A stretch of DNA of 64,000 nucleotides, taken from IMG/VR virus record IMGVR_UViG_2881418779_000002, positions 2,227 through 66,226 of that record. One strand, 5' to 3'. Source of the stretch: a virus (taxonomy: Duplodnaviria > Caudoviricetes). Positions 50,544-64,000 of this stretch are shown piece by piece; the stretch's first letter is position 1, and each line of letters opens with the position of its first letter. The notes below the pieces were generated by a model that saw only the letters and a list, made by a program, of their open reading frames with translations, was not told where the DNA came from and searched no databases. The translations under genes and the position numbers were made by a program.

Positions 50544-50746
50544 ACCACGCAATGACTTGGGTTAAGCTTACAAAATACGTTGACATAACAGGCGACACCG
50601 CAGATGCGGTCCGGTCACGCAGAAAAATGGGTAAATGGCTGGACGGCACCCAGTGCAAGATTGTCGACGGATTTTTGTGGGTAAATTTGGCTGAGGCAGA
50701 AAAATGGGTGGAGCAATGGGGAACCAAGCAAGCACTCGCGGCATAG
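50540..50746 (+). CDS. xis: Excisionase
   Basis: WVKLTKY..ITG...V..RRKMGKWLDG...DG.LWVNL; overlaps int. Confidence 0.8.
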   Translation: MNHAMTWVKLTKYVDITGDTADAVRSRRKMGKWLDGTQCKIVDGFLWVNLAEAEKWVEQWGTKQALAA

Positions 50747-51918
50747 AACTGCGAAAAGGAACGGAATCCGAGTCCATTCGAATCCGGTTCATGTACAAGG
50801 GAATGGAGTGCCGAGAGTCACTAAAACTTGCGCACACCAAGCAGAACATCAACTACGCGATCCGCCTTCGCGGGGAAATCCTCAATGCTATTGAGCGCGG
50901 GAATTTCAATTACGCGGAATATTTTCCCGACTCAACTACGGCTAGCAAATTCGGCCCAGCTCCCGTGAAGGAGACTATCGGCGAGTTACTGCGCGAACAA
51001 TTGGATATTGCAAAGAAAACACTATCAGCCAGCACACATCGTGGGTATAAGCAGGTTTGTGACTCGCATCTATTCGATCAGTGGGATAAAACCCTATTGC
51101 GCGATTTGACGGCACCGGCGATTAGGGCATGGATTGCTGGACTGGATTGCAAAATCAAGACTGTCCGCAACATTCTTACCCCATTGCGGAATGCCTTGGA
51201 GCAGGCGGTTAATGACGACCTTATCGAATTTAATCCATTGGAGCGAGTCAAACTATCAAAGATCATGCCACGAGAAGCGCGCAAAACTGACTTTGAAGTT
51301 GATCCGTTCGATATGAAGGAAATTAGCGCAATCCTGGCGGCGTGCGTCGGTCAAGAGCGAAACGTGTGGCAGCACGCGTTTGCAACGGGAATGCGAACAT
51401 CGGAGTTTATCGCACTGGAGTGGCAATCGATTGACTGGGTGAGTTCAAAAATTAGTGTTGATCGCGTCAAAACTCAAGGCATCACCAAGACGGATGCCAA
51501 AACCGCAGCGGGTAATCGGAAGATAGATATGCTACGCGGCGCATACGACGCCCTGGTTGCGCAAAAGGAATTCACTCAACTAAAAGGAGGATTGGTATTT
51601 GAGGATCCTCGTTATAACGAAGGGTGGGCTGATGACCATGCGCTAGCCAAGCGCTGGCGACGAATCTTAACAAAGGCAGGAGTCAGGTATCGCAATCCGT
51701 ACCAGACGCGTCATACCTTCGCTAGTACGTTGCTATCCGCAGGAGCAAACCCTTTATACGTCGCAAAGATGATGGGACACCGCGACACCGAGATGATTAC
51801 CCGAAATTATGGTCGTTGGATTGAGCAGGGAACCGAATCGGAAACGCGGAAACAGCTTTTGGAGTTTTTCGCCCAAATGTCGCCCAAATCAAATGGGATA
51901 ATCGGCAAAGCGTTATAG
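50716..51918 (+). CDS. int: Prophage tyrosine integrase
   Basis: Arm-binding N-terminus (IRIRFMYKGMECRE); TGMRTSE, RNPYQTRHTFAS and MGHRD...Y catalytic motifs. Confidence 0.95.
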   Translation: MGNQASTRGIELRKGTESESIRIRFMYKGMECRESLKLAHTKQNINYAIRLRGEILNAIERGNFNYAEYFPDSTTASKFGPAPVKETIGELLREQLDIAKKTLSASTHRGYKQVCDSHLFDQWDKTLLRDLTAPAIRAWIAGLDCKIKTVRNILTPLRNALEQAVNDDLIEFNPLERVKLSKIMPREARKTDFEVDPFDMKEISAILAACVGQERNVWQHAFATGMRTSEFIALEWQSIDWVSSKISVDRVKTQGITKTDAKTAAGNRKIDMLRGAYDALVAQKEFTQLKGGLVFEDPRYNEGWADDHALAKRWRRILTKAGVRYRNPYQTRHTFASTLLSAGANPLYVAKMMGHRDTEMITRNYGRWIEQGTESETRKQLLEFFAQMSPKSNGIIGKAL

Positions 51919-51940
51919 GAACAGGCTCGGCGGTGACCGT

Positions 51941-51971
51941 GACGCGGGTTCGATTCCCGCCGCCTCCACCA
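51941..51971 (+). repeat. tmRNA (ssrA) 3'-end fragment: prophage att site and left junction of the second island
   Basis: GACGCGGGTTCGATTCCCGCCGCCTCCACCA: T-arm plus acceptor strand with U70 and CCA; no matching 5' acceptor strand just upstream. Confidence 0.8.
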
Positions 51972-52003
51972 ATTACGCGTATCACAAAGTCCCAAACTGT
52001 TCC

Positions 52004-52038
52004 AAAGGCCGCTCCCCTCATAGGGAAGCGGCCTTTTT
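52004..52038 (+). terminator. Terminator-like hairpin after the ssrA fragment
   Basis: AAGGCCGCTCCCC-TCATA-GGGAAGCGGCCTT followed by a T run. Confidence 0.7.
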
Positions 52039-52133
52039 ATTGTCTCGTGAGGTATCATAAAGTATCGCCACATCCCGTGATTTCAGACGGTATGTCTGAC
52101 GGTATCCCACCACCTTACAAGAGACATACCGTC

Positions 52134-53348
52134 ATGCCCCTTACAGACATTGAAATCCGTAATGCTAAAGCAAAGGATAAAGACTACAAGCTTTCTGATG
52201 AACGAGGTCTTTATCTTCTTATCAATAAAGCAGGAAAATATTGGCGTTATGACTATCGTTTTTCAGGAAAACGCAAAACGTTTGCGATAGGGGTTTATCC
52301 AGACATAACCCTTGCCGTTGCCAGAGTAAAACTTAACGAAGCACGTACCTTAGTCGCAAACGAGATCGATCCTGCGGTAAATAAGCAGGTGCAAAAGGCG
52401 GCAACCGTAGCTAGAGCGGCCAACAGTTTTGAAGTGGTGGCCCGCGAATGGTTTGCAAAATTCTCCAAAGAATGGGCGGAGAGTCACAGCAGCAAAATTC
52501 TCCGCCGCTTAGAGCGAGACATTTTCCCTTGGATTGGTGGCCGCCCAATTGCGGACATTACACCGCCCGAACTTTTAGCCGTGCTGCGCAGAATTGAAAA
52601 CCGTGGCGCACTAGAGACAGCGCATCGAGCACATCAAAACTGCAGTCAGGTATTCCGTTACGCAGTAGCGAGCGGACATATGCAACGCGACTTCTCGCCG
52701 GACTTACGCGGAGCGATTCCGCCAGCGAAAGAAACTCACCACCCATCAATTACTGACCTCAAGGGGATAGGTGAACTAATGCGGGTCATTCAAAGCTACG
52801 GTGGCTCATTTGTTACCCAGTGTGCGCTACGGCTCCTTCCTCTCGTTTTTGTTCGTTCGGCAGAACTACGGAAAGCCGAATGGGTAGAGTTTGATATAGA
52901 TCGGGCGGAGTGGCGCGTTCCTGCTGAGCGCATGAAAATGAAGGAACAGCATATCGTTCCCCTCTCCTTCCAGGCTGTCGTAATCCTGCGGGAGCTTCAC
53001 CCACTGACGGGTCACGGGAAATATGTTTTCCCGGGCGCAAGGACAAACGGACGTCCAATGAGTGAGAATACCGTCAACGGTGCGTTACGCCGCTTGGGGT
53101 ATAGCAAAGAAGAAATGACCGGCCACGGTTTTCGGAGCATGGCATCTACGCATTTAAATGAACAGGGCTGGAATCCAGACGCCATCGAACGCCAACTGGC
53201 GCATGGTGAGCGCGATCCCGTGCGCGGGGCTTATAACTTTGCTGAATATTTGGGAGAGAGGCGCAATATGATGCAGTCTTGGGCCGATTTTCTTGACAAA
53301 CTGGCCAGCGGGGATAAAGTCATGCCAATAGACAACAAAGTTGCTTAG
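52134..53348 (+). CDS. P4-family tyrosine integrase of the second island
   Basis: MPLTDIEIRNAK..DKDYKLSDERGLYL; VRSAELR, HGFRSMAST, IERQLAH and AYN motifs. Confidence 0.95.
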   Translation: MPLTDIEIRNAKAKDKDYKLSDERGLYLLINKAGKYWRYDYRFSGKRKTFAIGVYPDITLAVARVKLNEARTLVANEIDPAVNKQVQKAATVARAANSFEVVAREWFAKFSKEWAESHSSKILRRLERDIFPWIGGRPIADITPPELLAVLRRIENRGALETAHRAHQNCSQVFRYAVASGHMQRDFSPDLRGAIPPAKETHHPSITDLKGIGELMRVIQSYGGSFVTQCALRLLPLVFVRSAELRKAEWVEFDIDRAEWRVPAERMKMKEQHIVPLSFQAVVILRELHPLTGHGKYVFPGARTNGRPMSENTVNGALRRLGYSKEEMTGHGFRSMASTHLNEQGWNPDAIERQLAHGERDPVRGAYNFAEYLGERRNMMQSWADFLDKLASGDKVMPIDNKVA

Positions 53349-53860: not shown

Positions 53861-55294
53861 ATGCGAATTTCGCAATATTTTAAGCTCAATAAAGAACAGC
53901 CTTATTTAGATTTCGTGGATATTCGATTAGATACGGACCTTGCGGTTTTCGTAGATCCTGGCCGATTAAGAAGTCTCCAAAGTACATGGGCGACAGAGTG
54001 TCTTTCCCTCATTCAAGATTATTTCGACACCGTACTTAAAAAAATCAACAATGGGGATGATGAAGGTGCAATCAATCTTCTTAGTTGCCTAAAAGAAAGT
54101 AATGACTTCCATTTTGGCTTTTCGAAAGGAAAATCGCGAGGCAATGGAATGGGTGACGGATCGGCTCATGACGTATGGGGAGCTTTGACCAAGAGTAAAG
54201 CGAGTATCACGGGCCTTCTCCAAGACCTTGAAGACACATGTTTGCTAATTGATGGAATAGGCCCAGATAGAATTTCAGATGCCGTCTGCAACATTCTGCG
54301 TGGCCCCCTAATTCAATACACCCAGGAGGTCTGTAATTATTATGGAATTGAATTAACTCCAGACGTTGCATCTGGTCCTGTTTGGAATCCAGATAAAGAG
54401 CTGTGGGAAGAGCGCTTAATTGCCCTGCCTATGACGGAGTATGGACGCGTGATTCTCGTTCCGAAAATAATCGTTCGGCATCAGATCTGGTATGACTCAC
54501 AGGAATATTACCGCTATTACCTACTCCCGCACATGCAGAGCGAGGAAAAACGCCTTCATACTGCATTAGTCGAGACGCTTAAAGACGGCCGGACACGGGT
54601 AACAAAAAAAAGCTTGATGCATAAATACGGCGCCGACAAACTAGCGGTTGTCGAACAGACCCTTAAGCACCCATCAGTCTTAGATAACTACAGAGAGGCG
54701 AAGAAAAAACGCTTTCCAAAGCCAATGGATCATGAAACATTGGCAGACATAGAGACTACACCCCCACCCGACTTTGCTTTAAAGCTTAAAAAGCTTTCTG
54801 CTGTCCCACCAGGCAGGGATCATGCGACAGTTTATGAAAATTTGATCGAAGAAATCCTGTCCGCCCTCTTTTACCCATGCTTAACTTCGCCAACAAAACA
54901 ACATAACATCCATGAGGGTAGAAAACGGATTGACCTTACATATGTAAATAGTGCTTCGTCCGGCTTTTTCGCTTGGCTTGCGATGCATTACCCAAGTGGG
55001 CATATTTTCATCGAATGCAAAAATTTCAGCTCCGACATTAGTAATCCAGAACTAGACCAGCTTTCAGGGCGGTTCTCTCCTAGCCGTGGTCGAGTTGGGT
55101 TATTGCTGTATAGAGAAATCGACAATCGAGAAAAATTTATTCAACGGTGCATTGATACAGCGAAAGATGACCGTGGTTTCATAATCCCGCTAGGAGACAC
55201 CGATCTAGCAGAATTAATCGGAAATTATCTTGAAAACCCAAAAAGCCAAGCGTTCTCCCATCTCAAGTCTCTTTTTAACCGATTGATAATGTAA
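53861..55294 (+). CDS. Stand-alone putative restriction-type nuclease (C-terminal PD-(D/E)xK domain)
   Basis: RIDLTY...IFIECKN...PELDQL; central GIGPDRISD motif; lower GC than the flanking DNA. Confidence 0.7.
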   Translation: MRISQYFKLNKEQPYLDFVDIRLDTDLAVFVDPGRLRSLQSTWATECLSLIQDYFDTVLKKINNGDDEGAINLLSCLKESNDFHFGFSKGKSRGNGMGDGSAHDVWGALTKSKASITGLLQDLEDTCLLIDGIGPDRISDAVCNILRGPLIQYTQEVCNYYGIELTPDVASGPVWNPDKELWEERLIALPMTEYGRVILVPKIIVRHQIWYDSQEYYRYYLLPHMQSEEKRLHTALVETLKDGRTRVTKKSLMHKYGADKLAVVEQTLKHPSVLDNYREAKKKRFPKPMDHETLADIETTPPPDFALKLKKLSAVPPGRDHATVYENLIEEILSALFYPCLTSPTKQHNIHEGRKRIDLTYVNSASSGFFAWLAMHYPSGHIFIECKNFSSDISNPELDQLSGRFSPSRGRVGLLLYREIDNREKFIQRCIDTAKDDRGFIIPLGDTDLAELIGNYLENPKSQAFSHLKSLFNRLIM

Positions 55295-55696: not shown

Positions 55697-58240
55697 ATGA
55701 CTATTAAAGAAGCCACTGCCCGCATCAAGATTAACAAACTGCTCGAAGTTGCTGGTTGGCGTTTCTTCACCGATGGCAAATTACCTGCAAACATCCAGCT
55801 TGAGCCCAGTGTCACGATCAAAACACAGGACCTTGACGCTCTCGGCGAAGACTTCGAGAAATCATCAAAAGGATTTATTGATTTTCTTCTTCTCAACGAG
55901 AAAGGCTTTCCCTTTATAGTCCTGGAGGCAAAGGCTGAATACAAAAGTCCGCTCGTTGGGAAGGAGCAAGCCCGCAAATACGCTCGTTCGCAGAACTGCC
56001 GTTTTATCATCCTTTCTAACGGCAACCTGCATTACTTCTGGGATCTGGAGCGCGGCAATCCCTACGTCATCACAACATTCCCGACGCCCACGTCAGTGAT
56101 CGGCTATCAGAAAACCGTCCCCGATCCTAAGCGTCTTGTTGAAGAGGTGGTTGACGACGACTATGTTGTTCTCACACAGCGACCCAGCTATGCTGCCGAG
56201 GCCTCTTGGAAGAATAAGGCCGAACGCCCTGAATTCATCGACGCGAACAGTCTGCGTTTCCTCCGCCCCTATCAAAAGAAAGCCATATACGCCCTGCAAA
56301 GTGCCGTCAAAGATGGCAAAGACCGCTTCCTATTCGAGATGGCCACCGGTACCGGCAAGACACTCACGTCTGCCGCCGTAGTCAAACTTTTTTTGCGCAC
56401 GGGTAATGCTAGGCGCGTGCTTTTTCTGGTGGATCGTTTAGAACTTGAAGACCAAGCTAAAAAAGCTTTCAGCAAGGTGCTCGCCAACGATTACAAAACC
56501 GTCATCTACAAAGAAAACCGTGATGATTGGCGACGCGCTGAAATTGTTGTCACCACCGTCCAGTCACTACTTTTTAACAACAAGTACCAGCAGCTCTTCT
56601 CGCCTACCGACTTCGACCTCGTCATCTCAGACGAGGCCCACCGCTCCATTGGCGGCAATGCCCGCGCCGTTTTCGACTACTTTATCGGGTACAAACTCGG
56701 CCTTACCGCCACACCGAGCGACTACCTCAAAAAGTTTGAGAAAGCGAAACCTACCACCAAGGACCCACGCGAATTCGAACGCCGTTTGTTGCTCGACACT
56801 TACCGCACCTTCGGCTGCGATGATGGCCAGCCCACATTCCGTTATTCCCTGCTCGATGGCGTGAAAGATGGCTTCCTTATCAATCCTACCGTAGTAGATG
56901 CCCGCAGCGAGATCACCACACAGCTTCTCTCGGAAAATGGGTTTATCGTTGAATTCAAAGACGATCAGGGCGAAGATCAGAAAGAGACTTTCAAGCAGCG
57001 CGAATTCGAGAAACGCTTCTTTTCCGACGCCACCAACCAGCTTTTCTGTAAAACATTTCTGGCGCATGCGCACCGCGACCCCATCAGCGGCGAGATTGGT
57101 AAATCCATCATCTTTGCCGTTAGTCAAAATCACGCCGCCAAACTTGCGCAGATTCTGAACCTGATGGCGGACATGATGTTCCCAGGCAAATACCAGTCTG
57201 ATTTTGCCGTGCAAGTCACCTCGCAGATTACCGACGCCCAGCAGTTCACCATCAACTTCACCAATAACAACCTGCTCGGATCAGCCAATTTTCTGCCAAG
57301 CTACAAAACCAGCAAAGCTCGCATCTGCATTACCGTCGGCATGATGACGACGGGCTACGATTGCCCCGACCTGCTCAACCTTGGCCTGTTCCGGCCGATC
57401 TTTTCGCCCACCGATTTCATCCAGATCAAAGGGCGCGGCACCCGCAAACACAATTTCCTCGAACAGCTATTCGATAACGACCTCAAGGAAATTGTCAAGA
57501 AACCGTGCAAAACCTCTTACAAACTGTTCGATTTTTTTGCCAATTGCGAATTCTTCGAAGAAGAGTTCAACTACGACGAGATTCTCAAACTACCTAAACC
57601 AAAAGGGCAAGGCAGCGAAGATGCGGGGGGTGGCGCGGGACCAGTGGCCTATGGTGAAAGCTACGAGCACTTAGGCGCAGATTTTATCTCATCCATTCAA
57701 CAAGAGACCATCGGCTATGAGGGCATGAAGATCGACCGCATGTTCTACGAGAAATTCGAGGACACCATGCGCGAGAATGCGACCATCGTTGAGGCCGTCG
57801 AGGCAGGCCAGTGGGACCGTGTTATTGATTACGTCAACCGCGAAGTGTTTGACAAGCCTAACGAATTCTATACCCTCGATAAGCTCCGTAAAGCCGCTGC
57901 CGTGGATCGTCGCCTCGGCCTGCGCGAAATTCTCGAAAAAATCTTCGGCCTGATCCCGCGCTTCAAATCCAAGGATGAACTGCTTGAAGAAGAATTCTCG
58001 AAATTCGTCGCCGACTACAAACCGGAAGAAGCTGAGGCTATTCCGGCGCTCAAGAATTACTTCAAGGCCTACGTCACCAGCGACCAGATTCGCCACATCA
58101 TCGAGACTAAACAATACACCGATCTCGCCACCAATCCGATCTTCTCGACCCGTGACCTCAGGGCCGTGCCAGAGCAATACCGCACACTCATACCCAATTA
58201 CATCAAGGACTACGTATCCTTGAACCAATTTGCTGCATAA
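55697..58240 (+). CDS. hsdR: Type I restriction subunit (EcoAI/EcoKI-like HsdR)
   Basis: D...LEAK nuclease, ATGTGKT Walker A, DEAH, LTAT, MMTTGYD and QIKGRGTR motifs. Confidence 0.92.
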   Translation: MTIKEATARIKINKLLEVAGWRFFTDGKLPANIQLEPSVTIKTQDLDALGEDFEKSSKGFIDFLLLNEKGFPFIVLEAKAEYKSPLVGKEQARKYARSQNCRFIILSNGNLHYFWDLERGNPYVITTFPTPTSVIGYQKTVPDPKRLVEEVVDDDYVVLTQRPSYAAEASWKNKAERPEFIDANSLRFLRPYQKKAIYALQSAVKDGKDRFLFEMATGTGKTLTSAAVVKLFLRTGNARRVLFLVDRLELEDQAKKAFSKVLANDYKTVIYKENRDDWRRAEIVVTTVQSLLFNNKYQQLFSPTDFDLVISDEAHRSIGGNARAVFDYFIGYKLGLTATPSDYLKKFEKAKPTTKDPREFERRLLLDTYRTFGCDDGQPTFRYSLLDGVKDGFLINPTVVDARSEITTQLLSENGFIVEFKDDQGEDQKETFKQREFEKRFFSDATNQLFCKTFLAHAHRDPISGEIGKSIIFAVSQNHAAKLAQILNLMADMMFPGKYQSDFAVQVTSQITDAQQFTINFTNNNLLGSANFLPSYKTSKARICITVGMMTTGYDCPDLLNLGLFRPIFSPTDFIQIKGRGTRKHNFLEQLFDNDLKEIVKKPCKTSYKLFDFFANCEFFEEEFNYDEILKLPKPKGQGSEDAGGGAGPVAYGESYEHLGADFISSIQQETIGYEGMKIDRMFYEKFEDTMRENATIVEAVEAGQWDRVIDYVNREVFDKPNEFYTLDKLRKAAAVDRRLGLREILEKIFGLIPRFKSKDELLEEEFSKFVADYKPEEAEAIPALKNYFKAYVTSDQIRHIIETKQYTDLATNPIFSTRDLRAVPEQYRTLIPNYIKDYVSLNQFAA

Positions 58241-58249
58241 AGGATTTTC

Positions 58250-60766
58250 ATGCTGGACTCCGTTACCAAACGCCGTATCGACACCGCCCGCGACATCCTC
58301 GTCGGTAAGGTCCCTGACCCAAAATCCCAAGTCGAGCAAATCACCATCGCCCTCATCTACAAATTCATGGATGATATGGACGCCGAAGCCGAAGAGCTGG
58401 GCGGCAAGCGTAAATTCTTCACCGGCGACTTTACCCGCTACGGCTGGGCCAAGCTGATGAGCGCAGGCATTGGCGGCCACGAATTGATCGGCCTCTACGG
58501 TGAAGGCATCACCACCATGCCGCAGAACCCCGGTATCCCCCTGCTGTTTCGCGATATTTTCAAAAACGCTTATCTACCGTATCGCGACCCCGAGACGCTC
58601 AAGAGTTTTCTTAAAATTATCGATGAATTTAGCTACGACCACTCCGAGCGACTCGGCGACGCCTTCGAATACTTGCTATCCGTCCTCGGCTCGCAAGGCG
58701 ATGCGGGTCAGTTCCGCACCCCGCGCCACATCATTGATTTCATCGTTGAGGTGATGGCACCAAAAAAAGGCGAGATGATTCTTGACCCCGCTTGTGGCAC
58801 GGCGGGTTTCCTCATCTCCGCTTACAAATACATTTTGCGTACGAATATCGACGCCAAAAATACCAGCACGCTCACCCCTGACGAAAAAGGCCGCATCGCC
58901 AAAAACTTTCAGGGCTACGACATCTCGCCCGACATGGTACGCCTATCGCTGGTGAACCTTTACTTGCACGGGTTCTCAGATCCGCACATCGTCGAATACG
59001 ACACACTCACATCCGAAGAACGCTGGAACGAATCCGCTGACGTCATTCTTGCGAATCCGCCCTTCATGTCGCCGAAAGGCGGCATCAAGCCGCATAAACG
59101 CTTTTCCATTCAGGCCAAGCGCAGTGAAGTGCTGTTTGTGGATTACATCGCCGAGCACCTCACGCCTACTGGTCGTGCTGGCATCATTGTTCCCGAAGGC
59201 ATCATCTTTCAGAGCCAGAACGCTTACAAAGAACTGCGGAAAATGCTGGTCGAAAATTCGCTCGTCGCCGTAGTTTCGCTCCCAGCGGGCGTGTTTCAGC
59301 CTTACTCTGGCGTCAAAACTTCCATCCTAATCCTCGATAAATCCCTCGCCAAACAAAGCCACAGCGTTGCCTTTTTCAAAATCGAAAACGACGGCTTCGG
59401 TCTTGGTGCACAACGCCGCGCGAATGGAGGAGAACAACTTACGCAGGTAAAAATTGAACTGGCCGAATACCTGCAAGCGCTCCGCAGGCAACAAGCCACC
59501 GACAAGCTTCAGCCCACGCTCGGACTGATTGTGGCGAAGGAAAAAATCGCCGCGAACGGCGACTACAACCTCAGCGGGGAGCGGTATCGGGAGATTGGGG
59601 TAAGCTCATCCAAATTTCCCAAACTACGCTTAGGCGACGTCTGCACATTGAATCCACTCAAGAGCGAACTTAGGGACTTGGGCGGTGAAACTTCCGTCTC
59701 CTTTGTGCCCATGGCAGACTTGAACGAGCATAGAATTTCATTCCGGCCCAGTGAAGAGAAAAGGCTGTCGGAAGTTTCGAACAGCTACACCTACTTCAAA
59801 GACAATGACGTGTTGCTGGCAAAAGTGACGCCCTGCTTCGAGAACGGCAAAGCGGGTATCGCGCGAAATCTCGTCAATGGAATCGGGTTCGGTTCAAGCG
59901 AGTATTACGTACTGCGGACCGAAGGGCTTGCACTCCCTGAATGGATCTACTTTTGTGTTACCCATCCAATCTTCCGAGATAGCGCGATTGCCCAGATGAC
60001 TGGCACCGGAGGTTTACAACGCGTACCGCGTAGCTATGTGGAGAACTTCGAAATCCCTCTCCCGCCGCTGGAGGTGCAGAAGGAGATCGTGGCGGAGATC
60101 GAGGGCTACCAGAAAGTCATCAATGGCGCCCGCACCGTCCTCGACCACTACCGCCCCCACATCCCCATCCACCTTGACTGGCCGGTCTTCGAACTCAGCG
60201 AAGTGTCGACCAAAATCACCGACGGCGCGCATTTCACCCCAACTTACACTGAGTCTGGCGTTCCGTTTCTGCGTGTTACCGACATCACTGGAAGCAACAC
60301 GTCGAAAAAGTTTATTCCGCAGGACGAGCATAACGAACTCATCAAGCGCTGCCGTCCAGAGAAGGGAGATGTTCTTTACTCAAAGAACGGCACCATCGGC
60401 ATTGCAAAGCTCATCGATTGGGATTGGGAGTTCAGCATATTCGTGAGCCTCGCTCTAATTAAGCCCAAGAGAGAGTTGCTGGACCCGCATTATTTGGCGT
60501 GCTTTTTGAATTCCGACACGGCATATGCTCAGGCGACTGCCCGCTCCAAGTCAGGCACGGTTACGAACCTCCATCTCGTCGATATTAAAACGATCAAAAT
60601 CCCCCTCCCACCCCTCGCCACGCAGCAAGCCATCGTCGCCGAGATCGAAGCCGAGCAAGCGCTGGTCGCCGCCAACCGCGAACTGATGATCCGCTTCGAG
60701 AAAAAAGTCCAGGCCACCATCGCCCGCGCCTGGGGTGAAGAAGATCTACCTGAAGTGGAGGTCTAG
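58250..60766 (+). CDS. HsdM-HsdS fusion (N6-adenine MTase + two TRDs)
   Basis: GQFRTP, DPACGTAGFL and NPPF; two TRDs each followed by a PLPPL..Q..IV.EIE conserved repeat. Confidence 0.92.
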   Translation: MLDSVTKRRIDTARDILVGKVPDPKSQVEQITIALIYKFMDDMDAEAEELGGKRKFFTGDFTRYGWAKLMSAGIGGHELIGLYGEGITTMPQNPGIPLLFRDIFKNAYLPYRDPETLKSFLKIIDEFSYDHSERLGDAFEYLLSVLGSQGDAGQFRTPRHIIDFIVEVMAPKKGEMILDPACGTAGFLISAYKYILRTNIDAKNTSTLTPDEKGRIAKNFQGYDISPDMVRLSLVNLYLHGFSDPHIVEYDTLTSEERWNESADVILANPPFMSPKGGIKPHKRFSIQAKRSEVLFVDYIAEHLTPTGRAGIIVPEGIIFQSQNAYKELRKMLVENSLVAVVSLPAGVFQPYSGVKTSILILDKSLAKQSHSVAFFKIENDGFGLGAQRRANGGEQLTQVKIELAEYLQALRRQQATDKLQPTLGLIVAKEKIAANGDYNLSGERYREIGVSSSKFPKLRLGDVCTLNPLKSELRDLGGETSVSFVPMADLNEHRISFRPSEEKRLSEVSNSYTYFKDNDVLLAKVTPCFENGKAGIARNLVNGIGFGSSEYYVLRTEGLALPEWIYFCVTHPIFRDSAIAQMTGTGGLQRVPRSYVENFEIPLPPLEVQKEIVAEIEGYQKVINGARTVLDHYRPHIPIHLDWPVFELSEVSTKITDGAHFTPTYTESGVPFLRVTDITGSNTSKKFIPQDEHNELIKRCRPEKGDVLYSKNGTIGIAKLIDWDWEFSIFVSLALIKPKRELLDPHYLACFLNSDTAYAQATARSKSGTVTNLHLVDIKTIKIPLPPLATQQAIVAEIEAEQALVAANRELMIRFEKKVQATIARAWGEEDLPEVEV

Positions 60767-60769
60767 GCT

Positions 60770-61507
60770 ATGGACGAGGCACTCGAATTAGCAGACTATC
60801 TCCCCGTGTCGTACAAGACGCAATCCGAGGGCAAGTATATTACTTTTCTCTGGGATGCCTTTCAGAGCAACTACGCGACGGGGAAATACGAATTCTCCAG
60901 CCTCGCCTTTCACCTGCTATATATGAGCTTCGTCAGTTTTTCGATCTGGCAAATCCGGTTGGTTCGCGAACAAGATTTCAAGAATGCGCTCGTCGGCTTT
61001 CAAAGCGAGTCTGAGAATACGCTCCTCGACGCTGACACGCCGTTCAAATTTTACGAAAAACTGAAGGAATCGCAGATCTTCCGTTTCCTAAAACTAATAG
61101 GTTGCGGAAACGAGCAAGTCGGTGAATTCGCGAAATTTGTAAAGCGTCGCAACAAGATCGCACATCCCAGTGGCACTGTCTTCTTCAACGACCAAAAATC
61201 GATTGACACCGAAATCAAGGAGATGATGCTAGAAGTGGCCAACATTCAGCGATGTATGCGTCCGATTATTCAAGAAGTGTACGGCCGTTTTTTGATCGGA
61301 GGTTCAGACCAAGAAGAACGCGAGTATGCAACCCCAGATCAAGAGATAGAAGCTAACCTGTTCCATCGAAATTACATCTCGCTAAAAGACATCGAAATCT
61401 GCATCGACTTTGACATCACCAGTTTACCTACGCATGAACACTCTGAAGCAATACAAGAATTGCACAACACTTTGATCTCAAAATATGAAAACTGTGACTA
61501 CCAATGA
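60770..61507 (+). CDS. HEPN-like protein co-transcribed with the R-M genes
   Basis: Rx4H motif RNKIAH; starts 3 bp after hsdMS. Confidence 0.55.
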   Translation: MDEALELADYLPVSYKTQSEGKYITFLWDAFQSNYATGKYEFSSLAFHLLYMSFVSFSIWQIRLVREQDFKNALVGFQSESENTLLDADTPFKFYEKLKESQIFRFLKLIGCGNEQVGEFAKFVKRRNKIAHPSGTVFFNDQKSIDTEIKEMMLEVANIQRCMRPIIQEVYGRFLIGGSDQEEREYATPDQEIEANLFHRNYISLKDIEICIDFDITSLPTHEHSEAIQELHNTLISKYENCDYQ

Positions 61508-61552
61508 GTATGACGACAAATCACTCAACACGGACATGCTGCGGCACATTGG

Positions 61553-62104
61553 TTAAGCGTTTATTTGTATATGTGGACGCCTCTTTAGCAAAGCTTCAAC
61601 AACTTCCTTGAACTGGGCTGGATTAGGAGTCCGCATAATTTGCAAGGGCAAGCCAAGCATTGTGGCAACCCTATTGGCATGGGCGGCCTCAGCTATCGCA
61701 AAGGACGCTAAGTCCGCAACGTTCCACGAATGATCGCCCCGTTCTGACAACCGCACCGAGATGACCTCAACATCACACTCAAGCAATAGAACAGCGTCAA
61801 TTCGCAAACAACGGAATACCTTTTCCGCAATCGGTATATGCACGCCATGTTCGCCACGAAGAACAAAATGCCCATCAAGCAGTAGCGATGGATCACTTTC
61901 TTTCAATCTTGAGACTGCTGAAATTAGAGCAGTCTGGTTATCGTCCACTTCGCTAACTTGTTTATCTTTACCCCACGATTGCCCCCCACGCTCTTCTCTT
62001 ATCAACTGACTCGCTGTCGCATGCCTGATTCCGAGTTGTTTAGCTATGGGGGCGGCAAGATAGGTCTTCCCGACACCATGAATGCCAGCAACGAAAATAA
62101 TCAC
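61553..62104 (-). CDS. P-loop nucleotide kinase-like protein
   Basis: GIHGVGKT, ASQLI and LLLDGH motifs. Confidence 0.85.
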   Translation of the reverse strand: MIIFVAGIHGVGKTYLAAPIAKQLGIRHATASQLIREERGGQSWGKDKQVSEVDDNQTALISAVSRLKESDPSLLLDGHFVLRGEHGVHIPIAEKVFRCLRIDAVLLLECDVEVISVRLSERGDHSWNVADLASFAIAEAAHANRVATMLGLPLQIMRTPNPAQFKEVVEALLKRRPHIQINA

Positions 62105-62571
62105 TGTTTAGCCTTCCTTATTCGCACTTTCTGTTCGAGTTTTCGTATTTCAGCTGCCGACAAGTAGCGAAACGATTGCGGTGCCGAAAAATTCTCAATG
62201 ACAGCCTGCGGCTCAATCATTTTCTCGAATTTAACAACGTCATCCAAGAGCACGGCATACCCAGCATCTTTACCGCTGAAATAGTCAAAAAGCTCACGCC
62301 TAGTCAGTCCTCCGCCGCGTTGAACACTGTGTTTCCATAGAGTGGACGGTGCCGCTCTCACGACGTCTTGCACATTCACGCGTCCCACAAGGCGGCAAAC
62401 TGGAGAACTGGCGTAGATAACAATCATTCCCACCTGCTCGGCAGCCCACATACGACGCAATTCGACTGTTTTCGTACCAGCAAGAATTAGCTCAGCGTAT
62501 TTAGGCTTAATTGAAAGAACTATGGCTCTTCCACCCTGCGGCAGTAAGCACTTTTGAGAATTGGTCATCAT
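62101..62571 (-). CDS. ASCH-domain protein
   Basis: LSIKPKYAELILAGTKTVELRR, IYASSPV and APQSFRYL motifs. Confidence 0.9.
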   Translation of the reverse strand: MMTNSQKCLLPQGGRAIVLSIKPKYAELILAGTKTVELRRMWAAEQVGMIVIYASSPVCRLVGRVNVQDVVRAAPSTLWKHSVQRGGGLTRRELFDYFSGKDAGYAVLLDDVVKFEKMIEPQAVIENFSAPQSFRYLSAAEIRKLEQKVRIRKAKQ

Positions 62572-64000
62572 GAATGTGTCGAATTGATTGAATTGGTCCT
62601 GCTACACCGCATTCCCGCTGAAGTTGAGCATAGCTAACTGGTCGAGATAGATGCTCGACCGAACGGAAGAGAATAACTTTCGTCTGTTTTTTCGCCATTG
62701 TTTCTATTTCTTCTTGACTGTAGACCGTCCGGCGGCTGACGAGGCTGGCTATTTCGGCAGGGTCTTGTAGCACCTTAAACTTATCCACGATACCAATTGT
62801 GGTTACAGACATCTCGTCATGTGTACGGTAGAACAGTAAGACATCACCAGCGCCGATAGCAGTTGTCTTCGCATGACACAAATAGGCCAGCTTGATCGCG
62901 TTGCCTACGCTGTTCGACGGGTTGAACAAGCGGCCTTGATGCGGACTGTAATCAGGAAAAAGCGTTTCGTGATACTCCGGCAAGATGGGAACGATGAATT
63001 TCTGTACGTCCGCATCATATCTAAAATGTGGAAAATATCGACGAGCATAGTCGAGCGGCGGCAATCCAGCTGGCTCAGGAGCTGATAGCGGATGAGTCTT
63101 CACCATCACTAGATCACCTGAATACGTCCCGCGTTCCTCAAAACCAAAATCTTCTAGTAAACGCAAAAGGTAATCGTGGCGCTCGGCATCGGCATGAATG
63201 AACAGATGTTCGCATGCGTTATTGGTGGCATAGCGGAATGCGGCCTTGAGAAATAGCTCTCCGATTTTCCGTCCGCGAACCTTTTCACCAACCTTGAAGG
63301 TGCAAAGTTTGAGCGCATCTCCAGTAAGGCACTCTTTCGCATCATTGAGAACCTCACCATTTTGTACGGTATAAATACAAAGTGCCGACAAATTTCCATG
63401 TTCGTCCCTGTACACCCACGCTCGCCGGTCGTCGCGCGCCGTACGACGAAACCATTCATCAAACCCGGCGTACCCTTCACGCAAGCTATCAAAGAAATCC
63501 GTAGCTAGACTTGGTGTCAGGCTATGCAGCGGTACATCCTCAATATTGGGAAGAACCTCCTGCTTCGGCTCGTGCAGCCCACGGAGCCAGTATTGCGCCA
63601 TTTGGATCGTATAAACACGATCACTCAATCCTCTTGTTCGCGCCTTACCGTGAATACCCCTGTCCTCAGTAACTAATGCATGCACCGCATCGCATTCAAG
63701 GGCATAGAGAATTTCGTTATCGCATGCCTCGTTGGCCGTAGTTTCCGGCGTATTCCAAGGGCATCGTGCAGGGTTATCAAGCTGTGAGTATTGCGCAAGA
63801 CGATGAAGATTCATTTCGCGCCGCTGCTCATCGGTATCTCGCCGAAAATCCGCAATGGTCGCGGGATGGTAGAGCAACTGATGCCCACCGACTCCGGCTA
63901 ATCGAACGAAGTCAGTCAGATTCGGCTCAAGAACCTGATAAGAGTCCTGAAGTGGAATTAGAATGTTTGTGTCGAGCAGAAATCGAAGTCGCAGCGCCAA
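62507..64000 (-). CDS. PIN-GNAT-ASCH/PUA-like fusion protein (start at or just beyond the window edge)
   Basis: LLDTNILI and D..I...LVTED (PIN); LCTFKV...RGRKIGELFL (GNAT motif A); AYLCHA...GDVLLFYRT (PUA/ASCH-like). Confidence 0.82.
   Translation of the reverse strand: MALRLRFLLDTNILIPLQDSYQVLEPNLTDFVRLAGVGGHQLLYHPATIADFRRDTDEQRREMNLHRLAQYSQLDNPARCPWNTPETTANEACDNEILYALECDAVHALVTEDRGIHGKARTRGLSDRVYTIQMAQYWLRGLHEPKQEVLPNIEDVPLHSLTPSLATDFFDSLREGYAGFDEWFRRTARDDRRAWVYRDEHGNLSALCIYTVQNGEVLNDAKECLTGDALKLCTFKVGEKVRGRKIGELFLKAAFRYATNNACEHLFIHADAERHDYLLRLLEDFGFEERGTYSGDLVMVKTHPLSAPEPAGLPPLDYARRYFPHFRYDADVQKFIVPILPEYHETLFPDYSPHQGRLFNPSNSVGNAIKLAYLCHAKTTAIGAGDVLLFYRTHDEMSVTTIGIVDKFKVLQDPAEIASLVSRRTVYSQEEIETMAKKQTKVILFRSVEHLSRPVSYAQLQRECGVAGPIQSIRHIHDDQFSKVLTAAGWKSHSSFN

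What the first reader, a model, noticed from the sequence alone, without database searches (positions are those of the whole stretch)
61553..64000. PIN-GNAT-ASCH + ASCH + P-loop kinase operon: candidate nucleotide-acetylation conflict system
Seen: three overlapping minus-strand genes with intact-looking PIN acidic residues, GNAT acetyl-CoA motif, two PUA/ASCH-like domains and a nucleotide kinase, converging on an R-M locus in an integrase island. Established: PIN domains are RNases, GNAT toxins acetylate aminoacyl-tRNA, and the E. coli ASCH protein YqfB hydrolyses N4-acetylcytidine. Inference: a writer/reader/eraser system for an acetylated nucleotide or nucleic acid, with the kinase making or recycling the substrate or signal and PIN as the abortive effector. 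I know of no experimental description of this trio.
Basis: partly seen in the sequence, partly recalled or inferred. Interest (0 to 1): 0.75.

Follow-up and report, generated by a model that had tools for sequence, protein, structure and literature searches.

The report
Known PIN-GNAT-EVE / ASCH / kinase cassette
The three overlapping genes are real and intact, but they are one more copy of a widespread mobile gene cassette that comparative genomics has described several times and that is already listed as an untested candidate anti-phage or toxin-antitoxin system, so what remains open is its mechanism, not its existence.

Summary
Observation confirmed. Window 61553-64000 (minus strand) holds three translationally coupled genes. 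A is a 497-aa PIN / GNAT / EVE-ASCH-like protein, and it is complete: its TTG start is the last codon of the window. B is a 156-aa ASCH protein. C is a 183-aa P-loop kinase with a nucleoside-monophosphate-kinase fold.

A and B match PADLOC candidate PDC-M11 (E 3.5e-140 and 2e-51). The trio is the "(PIN)-GNAT-EVE + ASCH + AAA_17" operon of Iyer 2013 (as cited), Matelska 2017 and Bell/Wolf/Koonin 2020. The literature I could search holds no experimental test. This scan has already met the cassette at least 19 times on other DNA.

In 77 non-redundant related loci:
- B sits next to A in 76.
- C is present in 52 of 60 loci with enough flank.
- Four loci carry in-frame ASCH-kinase fusions.
- Type I R-M genes lie within 8 kb in 10 of 24 well-flanked loci, often directly upstream on the same strand.

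Lambdoid phages carry PIN-less homologues annotated "GevT toxin / GevA antitoxin".

My best reading is a toxin-antitoxin-like conflict module with A as effector, B as antidote and C as B's partner. Interest is low to moderate.

The parts
62507..64000 (-). Gene A: 497-aa PIN / GNAT / EVE-ASCH-like three-domain protein (PADLOC PDC-M11A). It is complete, with its TTG start at window base 64000.
   Evidence: ORF. PDC-M11A E 3.5e-140 over residues 6-491. Start confirmed in the genome. AF2 model pLDDT 93.7, pTM 0.87. 1604 cluster representatives at E<=1e-3.
63566..64000 (-). PIN-like domain of A (residues about 1-145), with invariant D10-T11-N12, D94 and D113.
   Evidence: Alignment A1. Pfam PIN_3, PIN_4, PIN_12 and PIN hits in relatives. 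Weak PDB hits to PIN proteins 3ix7 and 1o4w. Corresponds by architecture to the PIN_15/PIN_17 families of Matelska 2017.
63083..63550 (-). GNAT-fold domain of A (residues 151-306). Motif A is R242-G-R-K-I-G247, non-canonical at position 4. Invariant residues: W183, K231, G243, G286, F287.
   Evidence: Pfam PF00583 E 1.5e-5. VIA Z 15.9 to NAA60 and Z about 15 to NatD and RimI. Foldseek hits to GNATs, including 7byy 'bacterial toxin'. Motif read.
62525..63010 (-). C-terminal PUA-like (EVE/ASCH) domain of A (residues 331-492). Conserved aromatic and histidine residues: H344, F348, Y373, F390, Y391, F445.
   Evidence: Foldseek 5GUQ E 4.5e-8, TMt 0.76-0.82. VIA Z 13.9. Pfam EVE in 15 of 47 relatives. 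Alignment.
62101..62571 (-). Gene B: 156-aa stand-alone ASCH protein (PADLOC PDC-M11B), ZmASCH-like, pI about 10. It overlaps A's 3' end by 65 nt.
   Evidence: Pfam ASCH E 2.7e-7. PDC-M11B E 2e-51. PDB 5GUQ/5GUS E 2e-13, with ZmASCH Tyr47 and Ser128 conserved as Y53 and S133. Invariant G32, K34, E37, R39, Y53, P57, W79, Y97, P131, Q132, S133. pI.
61553..62104 (-). Gene C: 183-aa P-loop kinase with a nucleoside-monophosphate-kinase fold (Pfam AAA_17). Its GTG start overlaps B's stop (GTGA).
   Evidence: AAA_17 E 1.3e-16. Weak hits to UMP/CMP, adenylate and AK6/Fap7 kinases. Invariant G7, G12, K13, D77, H79, R118, R122, with 'LLDGHFVLR'. The kinase half of a fused homologue folds like archaeal adenylate kinases, TMt 0.68-0.77.
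55697..61507 (+). Recurrent neighbours, not shown to be functional parts: type I R-M (HsdR 55697-58240; fused HsdM-S 58250-60766) and a HEPN-like gene 60770-61507. They converge on gene C.
   Evidence: Pfam on HsdR. Weak HEPN_RiboL-PSP E 0.0018. Homologous R-M and HEPN genes lie directly upstream of, or around, A-B-C on the same strand in L012, L025, L026, L027, L028 and L031.

Best explanation
This is an intact copy of the mobile '(PIN)-GNAT-EVE + ASCH + AAA_17 kinase' cassette (PADLOC candidate PDC-M11 plus its frequent third gene). It is carried as cargo on an integrase/relaxase island beside a type I R-M system.

Most likely working model (inferred, not shown): a toxin-antitoxin-like conflict module.
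- Protein A is the effector. Its C-terminal EVE/ASCH-like barrel docks on a nucleic-acid ligand, most likely RNA or a modified base. Its PIN nuclease, and possibly its GNAT domain, then damage that target and stop growth or phage replication.
- Protein B, a basic ZmASCH-like protein with an enzyme-like set of invariant residues, counteracts A. It would either act on the same ligand (undoing or competing) or bind A, as the label 'GevA antitoxin' implies for phage homologues.
- Protein C, a kinase with a nucleoside-monophosphate-kinase fold, works physically with B, since the two are fused in some relatives. It is an accessory that I saw only with PIN-bearing forms.

Shown here: gene structure, domain folds, conserved catalytic-type residues, strict A-B linkage, frequent C linkage, B-C fusions, R-M association, mobility.

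Inferred: toxicity, who neutralises whom, the substrate, any acetylation, any anti-phage effect.
For: Identity:
- PADLOC PDC-M11A and PDC-M11B hits at E 3.5e-140 and 2e-51.
- The published description of the same operon.

Linkage:
- B is adjacent to A and co-directional in 76 of 77 non-redundant loci. The exception has only 11 bp of flank.
- The link holds even at 27-35% identity and with permuted gene order: B-A-C, C-A-B and A-B-C.
- C is present in 52 of 60 loci with enough flank.
- In-frame ASCH-kinase fusions occur in L093, L098, L102 and L104. A fused form folds confidently, pLDDT 93.3.
- C was found in 0 of 5 PIN-less loci and is absent from the phage GevT/GevA and psiM100 loci.

Effector-type features of A:
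- Invariant PIN acidic residues.
- GNAT fold at Z 15.9.
- PUA-like barrel matching ZmASCH.

B:
- Homologous to ZmASCH at E 2e-13, with two of the three residues that its authors found important conserved.
- pI about 10.

Toxin-antitoxin reading:
- Lambdoid phages carry GNAT-EVE and ASCH homologues annotated 'GevT toxin' and 'GevA antitoxin', between the cI and kil genes as annotated.
- GevT is 28% identical to A residues 169-485 (E 2e-27). GevA is 34% identical to B (E 9e-29).
- Alpha-proteobacterial plasmid copies have helix-turn-helix proteins under or beside the match, as both papers describe for HTH-ASCH fusions.

Conflict context and mobility:
- Type I R-M genes lie within 8 kb in 10 of 24 well-flanked loci, often abutting A on the same strand.
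- The cassette sits on an integrase / TrwC / coupling-protein island.
- Distribution is sporadic: 7 of 401 genomes of the class, 0 of 4 other species of the genus, 2 of 24 other genomes of the family.
Against: - No experiment on any member was found in the searchable literature. Bell et al. say explicitly that none of the modules has been characterised.
- The GevT/GevA labels are a depositor's annotation without a paper I could read.
- B's invariant K/E/R/Y/W/Q/S set looks more like an enzyme or a specific ligand pocket than a simple protein antidote.
- GNAT motif A is non-canonical, and Matelska et al. consider the domain inactive. If so, the 'GNAT toxin' analogy fails.
- The loci sampled are mostly one clade (55-81% identity to A) and are related to one another, so the counts overstate independence.
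Confidence: 0.5

Rival explanations
1. Nucleic-acid (or nucleotide) acetylation system with writer, reader and eraser. This is the first reader's idea, and Bell 2020 and Matelska 2017 attribute the same idea to Iyer et al. 2013. The GNAT domain of A would acetylate a base in DNA, RNA or a nucleotide selected by the EVE-like domain. B (ASCH) would read or remove the mark, as YqfB does for N4-acetylcytidine. The kinase would process the nucleotide. PIN would cut marked or unmarked nucleic acid. It could complement the neighbouring type I R-M, for example against phages with modified DNA.
For: - A strong GNAT fold with invariant residues in and around the cofactor loop: K231, G243, G247, E248.
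- Two PUA-like domains of a superfamily known to bind modified bases.
- B has an enzyme-like conserved pocket.
- B is fused to a kinase with a nucleoside-monophosphate-kinase fold in four loci, which fits a mononucleotide-level step.
- Recurrent embedding in type I R-M loci.
- An unrelated ASCH-like enzyme (BapA) has recently been reported to modify 5hmC in phage DNA as part of a defence.
Against: - Motif A departs from Q/R-x-x-G-x-G/A.
- The position four residues before G286, where I recall a catalytic Tyr in GNAT toxins such as TacT (from memory, not checked here), holds Leu.
- Matelska et al. judge the domain degenerate.
- B is not detectably similar in sequence to YqfB: no such hit at E<=1 against PDB sequences. 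Its characterised relative ZmASCH is reported as an RNase, not an amidohydrolase.
- No acetylated base is known to act as a self-mark in bacteria (my own knowledge).
Confidence: 0.2
2. A is essentially a PIN nuclease with two ligand-sensing or regulatory domains: a catalytically dead GNAT-like domain and a PUA-like barrel. Nothing is acetylated. B and C modulate nuclease activation.
For: - Matelska et al. argue that motif A is lost.
- The window's motif is RGRKIG.
- The Pfam GNAT score is barely above threshold, 25.7 against 20.7 bits.
- The PIN acidic residues are invariant.
Against: - PIN-less GNAT-EVE plus ASCH pairs are common (Collinsella loci L005-L011, the lambdoid phage GevT, L017) and keep the GNAT-EVE core. 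The conserved core of the family is therefore GNAT-EVE, not PIN.
- The GNAT domain carries several invariant residues, which argues for a maintained function.
Confidence: 0.15
3. Pure addiction or stabilisation module of the mobile island, with no anti-phage role. A and B act as a post-segregational killing pair that keeps the integrase/relaxase element and its R-M cargo in the host.
For: - Location on an integrative mobilisable element, on plasmids (33 plasmid records) and on prophages.
- Toxin/antitoxin labels on the phage homologues.
Against: - Repeated tight embedding in type I R-M operons and defence islands is the signal that put the pair into PADLOC.
- The lambdoid-phage copy lies between cI and kil. 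From my own knowledge this is where lambda carries its rexAB exclusion genes, which would suggest phage exclusion.
- The two roles are not mutually exclusive.
Confidence: 0.1
4. Housekeeping RNA or ribosome maturation activity. PIN, an AK6/Fap7-like kinase, GNAT and PUA recall Nob1, Fap7, Kre33 and PUA proteins of small-subunit biogenesis.
For: - Weak kinase hits to AK6/Fap7-type proteins (NCBIfam PRK03839 E 6e-8; PDB 4cvn, 3iij).
- An ASCH hit to an L22 fusion protein (NCBIfam E 9e-7).
Against: - Sporadic, mobile distribution: 7 of 401 genomes of the class and none of 4 congeners.
- Presence on plasmids and phages.
- Decayed copies exist: L024 (B split), and G408 and G421 (stops inside the match to A).
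Confidence: 0.03

Closest known systems
(PIN)-GNAT-EVE operons with ASCH and AAA_17 genes (Bell, Wolf and Koonin 2020, PMC7641849, who cite Iyer et al. 2013). The same operon appears as the PIN_15/PIN_17 'PIN-GNAT-PUA' systems of Matelska et al. 2017 (PMC5499597).
   Same: - Same three-domain protein.
- Same adjacent ASCH gene.
- Same optional AAA_17 gene.
- Same association with type I R-M.
- Same sporadic, mobile distribution.
   Different: Nothing essential. Here the cassette is inverted relative to the R-M/HEPN unit (convergent), whereas close relatives (L025, L026, L028) have it appended on the same strand. The B protein here has no HTH domain, unlike the alpha-proteobacterial forms.
PADLOC phage defence candidate PDC-M11, components A and B. 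The PDC set comes from Payne et al. 2024, bioRxiv 10.1101/2024.01.29.577857.
   Same: A and B match the PDC-M11A and PDC-M11B profiles over nearly their full length (E 3.5e-140 and 2e-51) and are adjacent.
   Different: PDC-M11 is defined as two genes. The kinase C has no PDC-M11 model (best PADLOC hit VakA, E 1e-4), although it accompanies 52 of 60 sampled loci. PDC systems are predictions, not tested systems.
GevT toxin / GevA antitoxin of lambdoid E. coli phages (GenBank PV340567.1 annotation).
   Same: - GevT is a GNAT-EVE protein, 28% identical to A residues 169-485 (E 2e-27).
- GevA is an ASCH protein, 34% identical to B (E 9e-29).
- Same gene order and overlap.
   Different: - GevT has no PIN domain.
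- There is no kinase gene.
- The pair is carried by a phage, not by an R-M island.
- I found no paper behind the names.
ZmASCH (ZMO0922) of Zymomonas mobilis, PDB 5GUQ/5GUS (Kim et al. 2017, PMC5615036).
   Same: - B aligns over 131 residues at E 2e-13. Tyr47 and Ser128 are conserved, as Y53 and S133.
- The ASCH half of a fused B-C homologue superposes at TMt 0.86, rmsd 1.9 A.
- A's C-terminal domain also matches it best.
   Different: - ZmASCH Lys53 corresponds to Cys59 in B, followed by Arg60.
- The reported activity (Mg-dependent ssRNA cleavage and 5'-nucleotide removal) has not been tested for B.
- I could not establish whether ZMO0922 sits in a GNAT-EVE operon.
[quoted passage not shown]
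   Same: GNAT fold. One such structure (7byy, 'bacterial toxin') is among the Foldseek hits. The module has toxin-antitoxin-like logic.
   Different: - Only remote similarity.
- Non-canonical motif A.
- Extra PIN and PUA-like domains.
- The partner is an ASCH protein, not an RHH/HTH antitoxin.

Membership tests
PADLOC PDC-M11 (candidate defence system) | A protein matching a PDC-M11A profile | tested here: met
   PDLC04422 E 3.5e-140, residues 6-491 on profile positions 2-495 of 501.
PADLOC PDC-M11 (candidate defence system) | An adjacent protein matching a PDC-M11B profile | tested here: met
   PDLC04424 E 2e-51. The genes overlap by 65 nt.
PADLOC PDC-M11 (candidate defence system) | Protection against phage | not testable with these tools
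   PDC systems are predictions by 'guilt by embedding'. No test was found in the searchable literature.
(PIN)-GNAT-EVE + ASCH (+AAA_17) operon (Bell et al. 2020) | N-terminal PIN domain with conserved acidic residues | tested here: met
   D10, D94 and D113 are invariant in 47 sequences. PIN_3 hits in 7 of 47 and 9 of 22 relatives. The window protein alone gives no Pfam PIN hit, so this is met at family level.
(PIN)-GNAT-EVE + ASCH (+AAA_17) operon (Bell et al. 2020) | Central GNAT-fold domain | tested here: met
   PF00583 E 1.5e-5. Z 15.9, rmsd 2.8 A, 149 residues aligned to NAA60.
(PIN)-GNAT-EVE + ASCH (+AAA_17) operon (Bell et al. 2020) | C-terminal EVE / PUA-like domain | tested here: met
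   Pfam EVE in 15 of 47 relatives. ZmASCH Z 13.9 over residues 331-492 and Foldseek E 4.5e-8.
(PIN)-GNAT-EVE + ASCH (+AAA_17) operon (Bell et al. 2020) | Separate ASCH gene in the operon | tested here: met
   B: Pfam ASCH E 2.7e-7. Adjacent to A in 76 of 77 related loci.
(PIN)-GNAT-EVE + ASCH (+AAA_17) operon (Bell et al. 2020) | Frequent AAA_17 gene and frequent type I R-M neighbourhood | tested here: met
   C: AAA_17 E 1.3e-16. HsdR and HsdM-S lie at 55697-60766. C is present in 52 of 60 loci, and R-M genes in 10 of 24 well-flanked loci.
GevT/GevA toxin-antitoxin pair (phage annotation) | Homology of both partners | tested here: met
   A residues 169-485 against GevT: 28% identity, E 2e-27. 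B against GevA: 34% identity, E 9e-29.
GevT/GevA toxin-antitoxin pair (phage annotation) | Toxicity of the GNAT-EVE protein and neutralisation by the ASCH protein | not testable with these tools
   Only a GenBank label. No paper found.
Canonical active GNAT acetyltransferases | Motif A Q/R-x-x-G-x-G/A for acetyl-CoA pyrophosphate binding | tested here: inconclusive
   The window has R242-G-R-K-I-G247. Positions 1 and 6 fit, and position 4 is Lys, conserved as K in most relatives. Matelska et al. read this as degenerate. From my own knowledge, some active GNATs also deviate from the motif.
YqfB-type ASCH N4-acetylcytidine amidohydrolases | Detectable similarity to YqfB and its catalytic residues | tested here: inconclusive
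   phmmer of B against all PDB sequences at E<=1 returned only ZmASCH entries plus chance hits. The signature G-x-K-x-x-E-x-R is present in B. The comparison with YqfB residues rests on memory only.
Nucleoside monophosphate kinases (adenylate / UMP-CMP kinase fold) | Walker A G-x-x-G-x-G-K-T, NMP-site 'LLDG' motif, lid arginines, NMP-kinase fold | tested here: met
   G7, G12, K13, D77, H79, R118 and R122 are invariant. The kinase half of fused homologue L093 matches archaeal adenylate kinases at TMt 0.68-0.77. Sequence scores are far below the curated family cut-offs, so the fold is met but the substrate is unknown.

The most novel reading that the evidence does not exclude
The recurrent in-frame fusion of the ASCH protein to a kinase with a nucleoside-monophosphate-kinase fold, together with an enzyme-like invariant pocket in ASCH, would mean that B and C act on a mononucleotide and not on a polymer. 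The cassette would then be a nucleotide-level writer/eraser circuit. The GNAT-EVE protein would acylate a (possibly phage-specific, modified) nucleotide or base. ASCH would reverse or trim the product, much as the enzymatic antitoxin DarG reverses DarT. The kinase would return the product to, or withhold it from, the nucleotide pool. PIN would be a back-up nuclease found only in the kinase-bearing forms. This would be a new biochemical principle for bacterial immunity and possibly the first acetylated-nucleotide pathway in conflict systems.
Probability: 0.12. Interest if true: 0.75.

Novelty: new member of a known kind. Interest (0 to 1): 0.3.

Why it matters
The family is large: 1604 cluster representatives at 50% identity. 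It is mobile, sits inside R-M and defence islands across bacteria, archaea, plasmids and phages, and combines three enzyme-type domains with two modified-base-reader-type domains. Yet I found no published biochemistry or phenotype for it. Working it out could reveal a new effector chemistry, such as nucleic-acid or nucleotide acylation or an enzymatic antitoxin.

This particular copy adds little beyond being a clean, intact, three-gene example next to a complete type I R-M system. That makes it a reasonable construct to clone. The points worth carrying forward are:
- the ASCH-kinase fusions, which indicate a physical link between B and C;
- the restriction of the kinase to PIN-bearing forms in the sample;
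- the repeated appending of the cassette to type I R-M operons on the same strand.

Tried and rejected
Binding between A and B is therefore untested.
- The search for related loci with the wide alignment A1 failed for lack of a conserved stretch. I repeated it with the narrower A2, so the 80 metagenome loci are biased towards one clade.
- The genome-contig scan with the single protein gave only 9 distant loci.
- BLASTP of B against A's C-terminal domain shows no similarity (E 14), although both match ZmASCH structurally. They are not recent paralogues.
- VIA-align on the whole A model was filled by GNAT hits, so it did not test the PIN fold. A profile of the PIN part against PDB sequences gave only weak PIN hits (E 0.16 and 0.61).
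- A search for island att repeats found one 19-nt pair at 84% identity, both copies inside genes. I rejected it as an att site.
- The promoter and terminator scan around the cassette found no more than chance.
- No match in 5,426 E. coli genomes at megablast level.
- Literature searches for PDC-M11, GNAT-EVE, GevT/GevA, ASCH plus anti-phage and ASCH plus antitoxin found no experimental study of this system.
- Iyer et al. 2013 is not held in the library. I cite it only through the two papers that describe it.
- I could not establish the genomic context of ZmASCH (ZMO0922): the papers do not give it, and I did not type its sequence into a search.

Full report
**1. What is there**

The last 2.45 kb of the window carries three minus-strand ORFs:
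- A, 62507-64000, 497 aa.
- B, 62101-62571, 156 aa.
- C, 61553-62104, 183 aa.

A's last 65 nt overlap B's start in another frame. B's stop and C's GTG start share GTGA. This is a translationally coupled operon.

It is not. In the genome (window = G000:C2:453818-517817) an in-frame TGA lies two codons upstream of the TTG that occupies window bases 63998-64000. A GGGGA lies about 10 nt upstream. Relatives begin at the same residues.

Upstream of A, beyond the window, lie a TrwC relaxase-helicase and a TrwB-type coupling protein. Within the window, two tyrosine integrases (50704-51918 and 51933-53348) sit at the other side of the cargo region. The cargo region holds:
- a PDC-M36A-like gene (53861-55294);
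- HsdR (55697-58240);
- a fused HsdM-S (58250-60766);
- a HEPN-like gene (60770-61507).

**2. Domains**

*Protein A.* Pfam finds only GNAT, at E 1.5e-5 and just above threshold. A family alignment of 47 sequences (30-81% identity) and an AlphaFold2 model (pLDDT 93.7, pTM 0.87) resolve three domains.
- Residues 151-306 have the GNAT fold: Z 15.9 to NAA60 and Z about 15 to NatD and RimI.
- Residues 331-492 are a PUA-like barrel. Its best match is the ASCH protein of Zymomonas mobilis: Foldseek E 4.5e-8, TMt 0.76-0.82 and Z 13.9. 15 of 47 relatives hit Pfam EVE.
- The N-terminal 145 residues carry the PIN signature. D10-T-N, D94 and D113 are invariant. PIN_3, PIN_4, PIN_12 or PIN hit some relatives, though not the window protein itself.

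GNAT motif A reads R242-G-R-K-I-G247. That is one position off the canonical Q/R-x-x-G-x-G/A. This is the basis on which Matelska et al. called the domain degenerate. G243 is invariant and G247 and E248 are nearly so, which leaves the activity question open.

*Protein B.* It is an ASCH protein (Pfam E 2.7e-7) and is homologous to ZmASCH (PDB 5GUQ/5GUS, E 2e-13). Of the three residues that Kim et al. found important for RNA binding and cleavage, Tyr47 and Ser128 are conserved (Y53, S133) and Lys53 is Cys59 followed by Arg60. Across 33 homologues, G32, K34, E37, R39, Y53, P57, W79, Y97 and P131-Q-S133 are invariant. That looks like a pocket or an active site. B is basic, with pI about 10.

*Protein C.* It hits AAA_17 at E 1.3e-16 and gives weak hits to UMP/CMP, adenylate and AK6/Fap7 kinases. 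It has an invariant Walker A (G7, G12, K13), an 'LLDGH' motif recalling the adenylate-kinase 'LLDGFPR' (recalled from my own knowledge), and two lid-type arginines, R118 and R122. The kinase half of a fused homologue folds like archaeal adenylate kinases, TMt 0.68-0.77.

**3. Is it a unit?**

I fetched about 100 related loci from genomes and metagenomes and scored them with iterated profile searches. After collapsing A proteins at 90% identity, 77 clusters remained.
- B is adjacent to A and co-directional in 76. The exception has 11 bp of flank.
- The link survives at 27-35% identity and with permuted orders: B-A-C in L003, L013 and L014; C-A-B in L016; A-B-C in the close clade.
- C is present in 52 of 60 clusters with enough flank.
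- In L093, L098, L102 and L104, B and C form one in-frame ORF of 322-331 aa. This is Rosetta-stone evidence that the ASCH protein and the kinase work together physically.
- C was never seen with PIN-less A proteins (0 of 5 clusters). It is also absent from the lambdoid phage and psiM100 loci. These loci are related to one another and few, so this is an observation, not a statistic.

Type I R-M genes lie within 8 kb in 10 of 24 clusters with at least 5 kb on both sides.
- In L025, L026 and L028 the cassette starts 3-4 nt after the HsdM-S or HEPN open frame, on the same strand.
- In L012 it sits between HsdM-S and the HEPN-like gene.
- In the window, the same kind of R-M/HEPN unit is present (HsdR 68% identical to that of L026), but the cassette is inverted and convergent.

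The cassette is sporadic. It occurs in 7 of 401 sampled genomes of the class, none of 4 other species of the genus and 2 of 24 other genomes of the family. It is found on 33 plasmid records, including archaeal ones, and in 16 phage records. Decayed copies exist: L024 (B split) and G408 and G421 (stops inside the match to A).

**4. What is already known**

PADLOC's database holds the pair as candidate system PDC-M11. A matches at E 3.5e-140 and B at E 2e-51. Those candidates were derived from genes embedded in type I R-M, BREX and DISARM loci and are explicitly untested (Payne et al. 2024).
- Matelska et al. 2017 describe PIN_15/PIN_17 proteins fused to a GNAT-like and a PUA-like domain, with a second PUA/ASCH gene and sometimes an ATPase gene.
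- Bell, Wolf and Koonin 2020 describe '(PIN)-GNAT-EVE' operons with ASCH and AAA_17 genes and their association with type I R-M. They credit Iyer et al. 2013 with the proposal that these proteins acetylate a base in DNA. They state that none of the modules has been characterised.
- I found nothing later. 'GNAT-EVE' occurs only in that paper and its preprint. 'PDC-M11' occurs only in three papers, none with the term in its title or abstract, and I did not open them.

One new lead is an annotation. Lambdoid E. coli phages carry a PIN-less homologue pair labelled 'GevT toxin' and 'GevA antitoxin', between the cI and kil genes as annotated in PV340567.1.
- GevT is 28% identical to A residues 169-485 (E 2e-27).
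- GevA is 34% identical to B (E 9e-29).
- No paper using these names is in the library.

This scan has already reported the cassette at least 19 times in at least 15 other genomes, with the same conclusion.

**5. How it most likely works**

The conserved core of the family is GNAT-EVE plus ASCH. PIN and the kinase are additions that, in my sample, go together.

The phage labels, the HTH-ASCH fusions reported in alpha-proteobacteria, the plasmid matches with HTH-annotated genes under or beside them, and the mobile, R-M-embedded context all fit a toxin-antitoxin-like conflict module:
- A is the effector. Its PUA-like barrel selects a nucleic-acid ligand. PIN, and perhaps GNAT, act on it.
- B is the antidote.
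- C is B's partner.

I put about 0.9 on the family assignment and about 0.4-0.5 on this functional outline.

The writer/eraser acetylation model (about 0.2) is compatible with it. B would then be an enzymatic antitoxin in the manner of DarG. It is supported by B's enzyme-like conservation and by the fusion of B to a kinase of mononucleotide-kinase fold. It is weakened by the non-canonical GNAT motif and by B's kinship to an RNase and not to YqfB.

A third reading (about 0.15) is a PIN nuclease with a dead GNAT. It is weakened by the abundance of PIN-less GNAT-EVE pairs. The other two rivals, a pure addiction role (about 0.1) and a housekeeping RNA-maturation role (about 0.03), rank lower.

**6. 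Verdict**

The interpretation as a conflict system is reasonable. The claim of an undescribed trio is wrong: this is a typical, intact member of a catalogued but uncharacterised family. Interest is low to moderate. It lies in the family's unknown chemistry, not in this locus.

Noticed in passing
L093:8475-9449, L098:8463-9434, L102:5174-6136, L104:8469-9434: In-frame fusions of the ASCH protein (B) and the kinase (C) into one ORF of 322-331 aa, in four metagenome loci whose A proteins are about 55% identical to the window's. A fused form folds with pLDDT 93.3.
   Followed up: yes
window 60770-61507 (+): A HEPN-like gene (weak RiboL-PSP HEPN hit, E 0.0018, with an RNKIAH motif) starts 3 nt after hsdMS. 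Homologues sit directly beside the A-B-C cassette in L012 (after C) and in L026, L027 and L031 (before A). It therefore travels with both the R-M unit and the cassette.
   Followed up: partly
window 53861-55294 (+): A 477-aa protein with no Pfam domain matches PADLOC candidate PDC-M36A (E 1.8e-44). I did not look for a PDC-M36 partner gene.
   Followed up: partly
window 50704-51918 and 51933-53348 (+); L002 934-3393 and 3390-5213 (-): Two tandem tyrosine integrases lie on one side, and a TrwC relaxase plus a TrwB-type coupling protein on the other. The defence cargo therefore sits on an integrative mobilisable or conjugative element, probably inserted next to the prophage that fills the middle of the window. 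No convincing att repeats were found.
   Followed up: partly
window 55697-64000 compared with L026:12-9421 and L012: Relative to close relatives, where R-M, HEPN and A-B-C are all on one strand with gaps of 3-4 nt, the cassette in this genome is inverted and converges on the HEPN-like gene with a 45-bp gap.
   Followed up: partly
L082:3432-3842, L084:5167-5562, L091:636-1040: A second, shorter ASCH paralogue (132-137 aa, closer to the Collinsella / GevA type) lies 1-2 kb from the main cassette in three loci. This may be a second, PIN-less system nearby.
   Followed up: no
L106 (Methanothermobacter prophage psiM100) 3001-4479 and 4457-4846: ORFD is a PIN-GNAT-EVE protein (29% identity over residues 5-431) that starts inside the annotated 'inserted fragment IFa' and runs past its end. 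The overlapping ORF5 is an ASCH homologue of B (profile E 3e-46). There is no kinase. The cassette thus also rides on an archaeal virus.
   Followed up: partly
L024:6328-6881; G408:C10:136937-138411; G421:C1:70282-71781: Decayed copies. The B gene is split in two frames in L024 (Diaphorobacter). The match to A in two genomes of the same family is split or interrupted by stop codons.
   Followed up: no
L005-L011 (Collinsella genomes): PIN-less GNAT-EVE (357 aa) plus ASCH pairs, without a kinase, are conserved across several gut Collinsella genomes.
   Followed up: no
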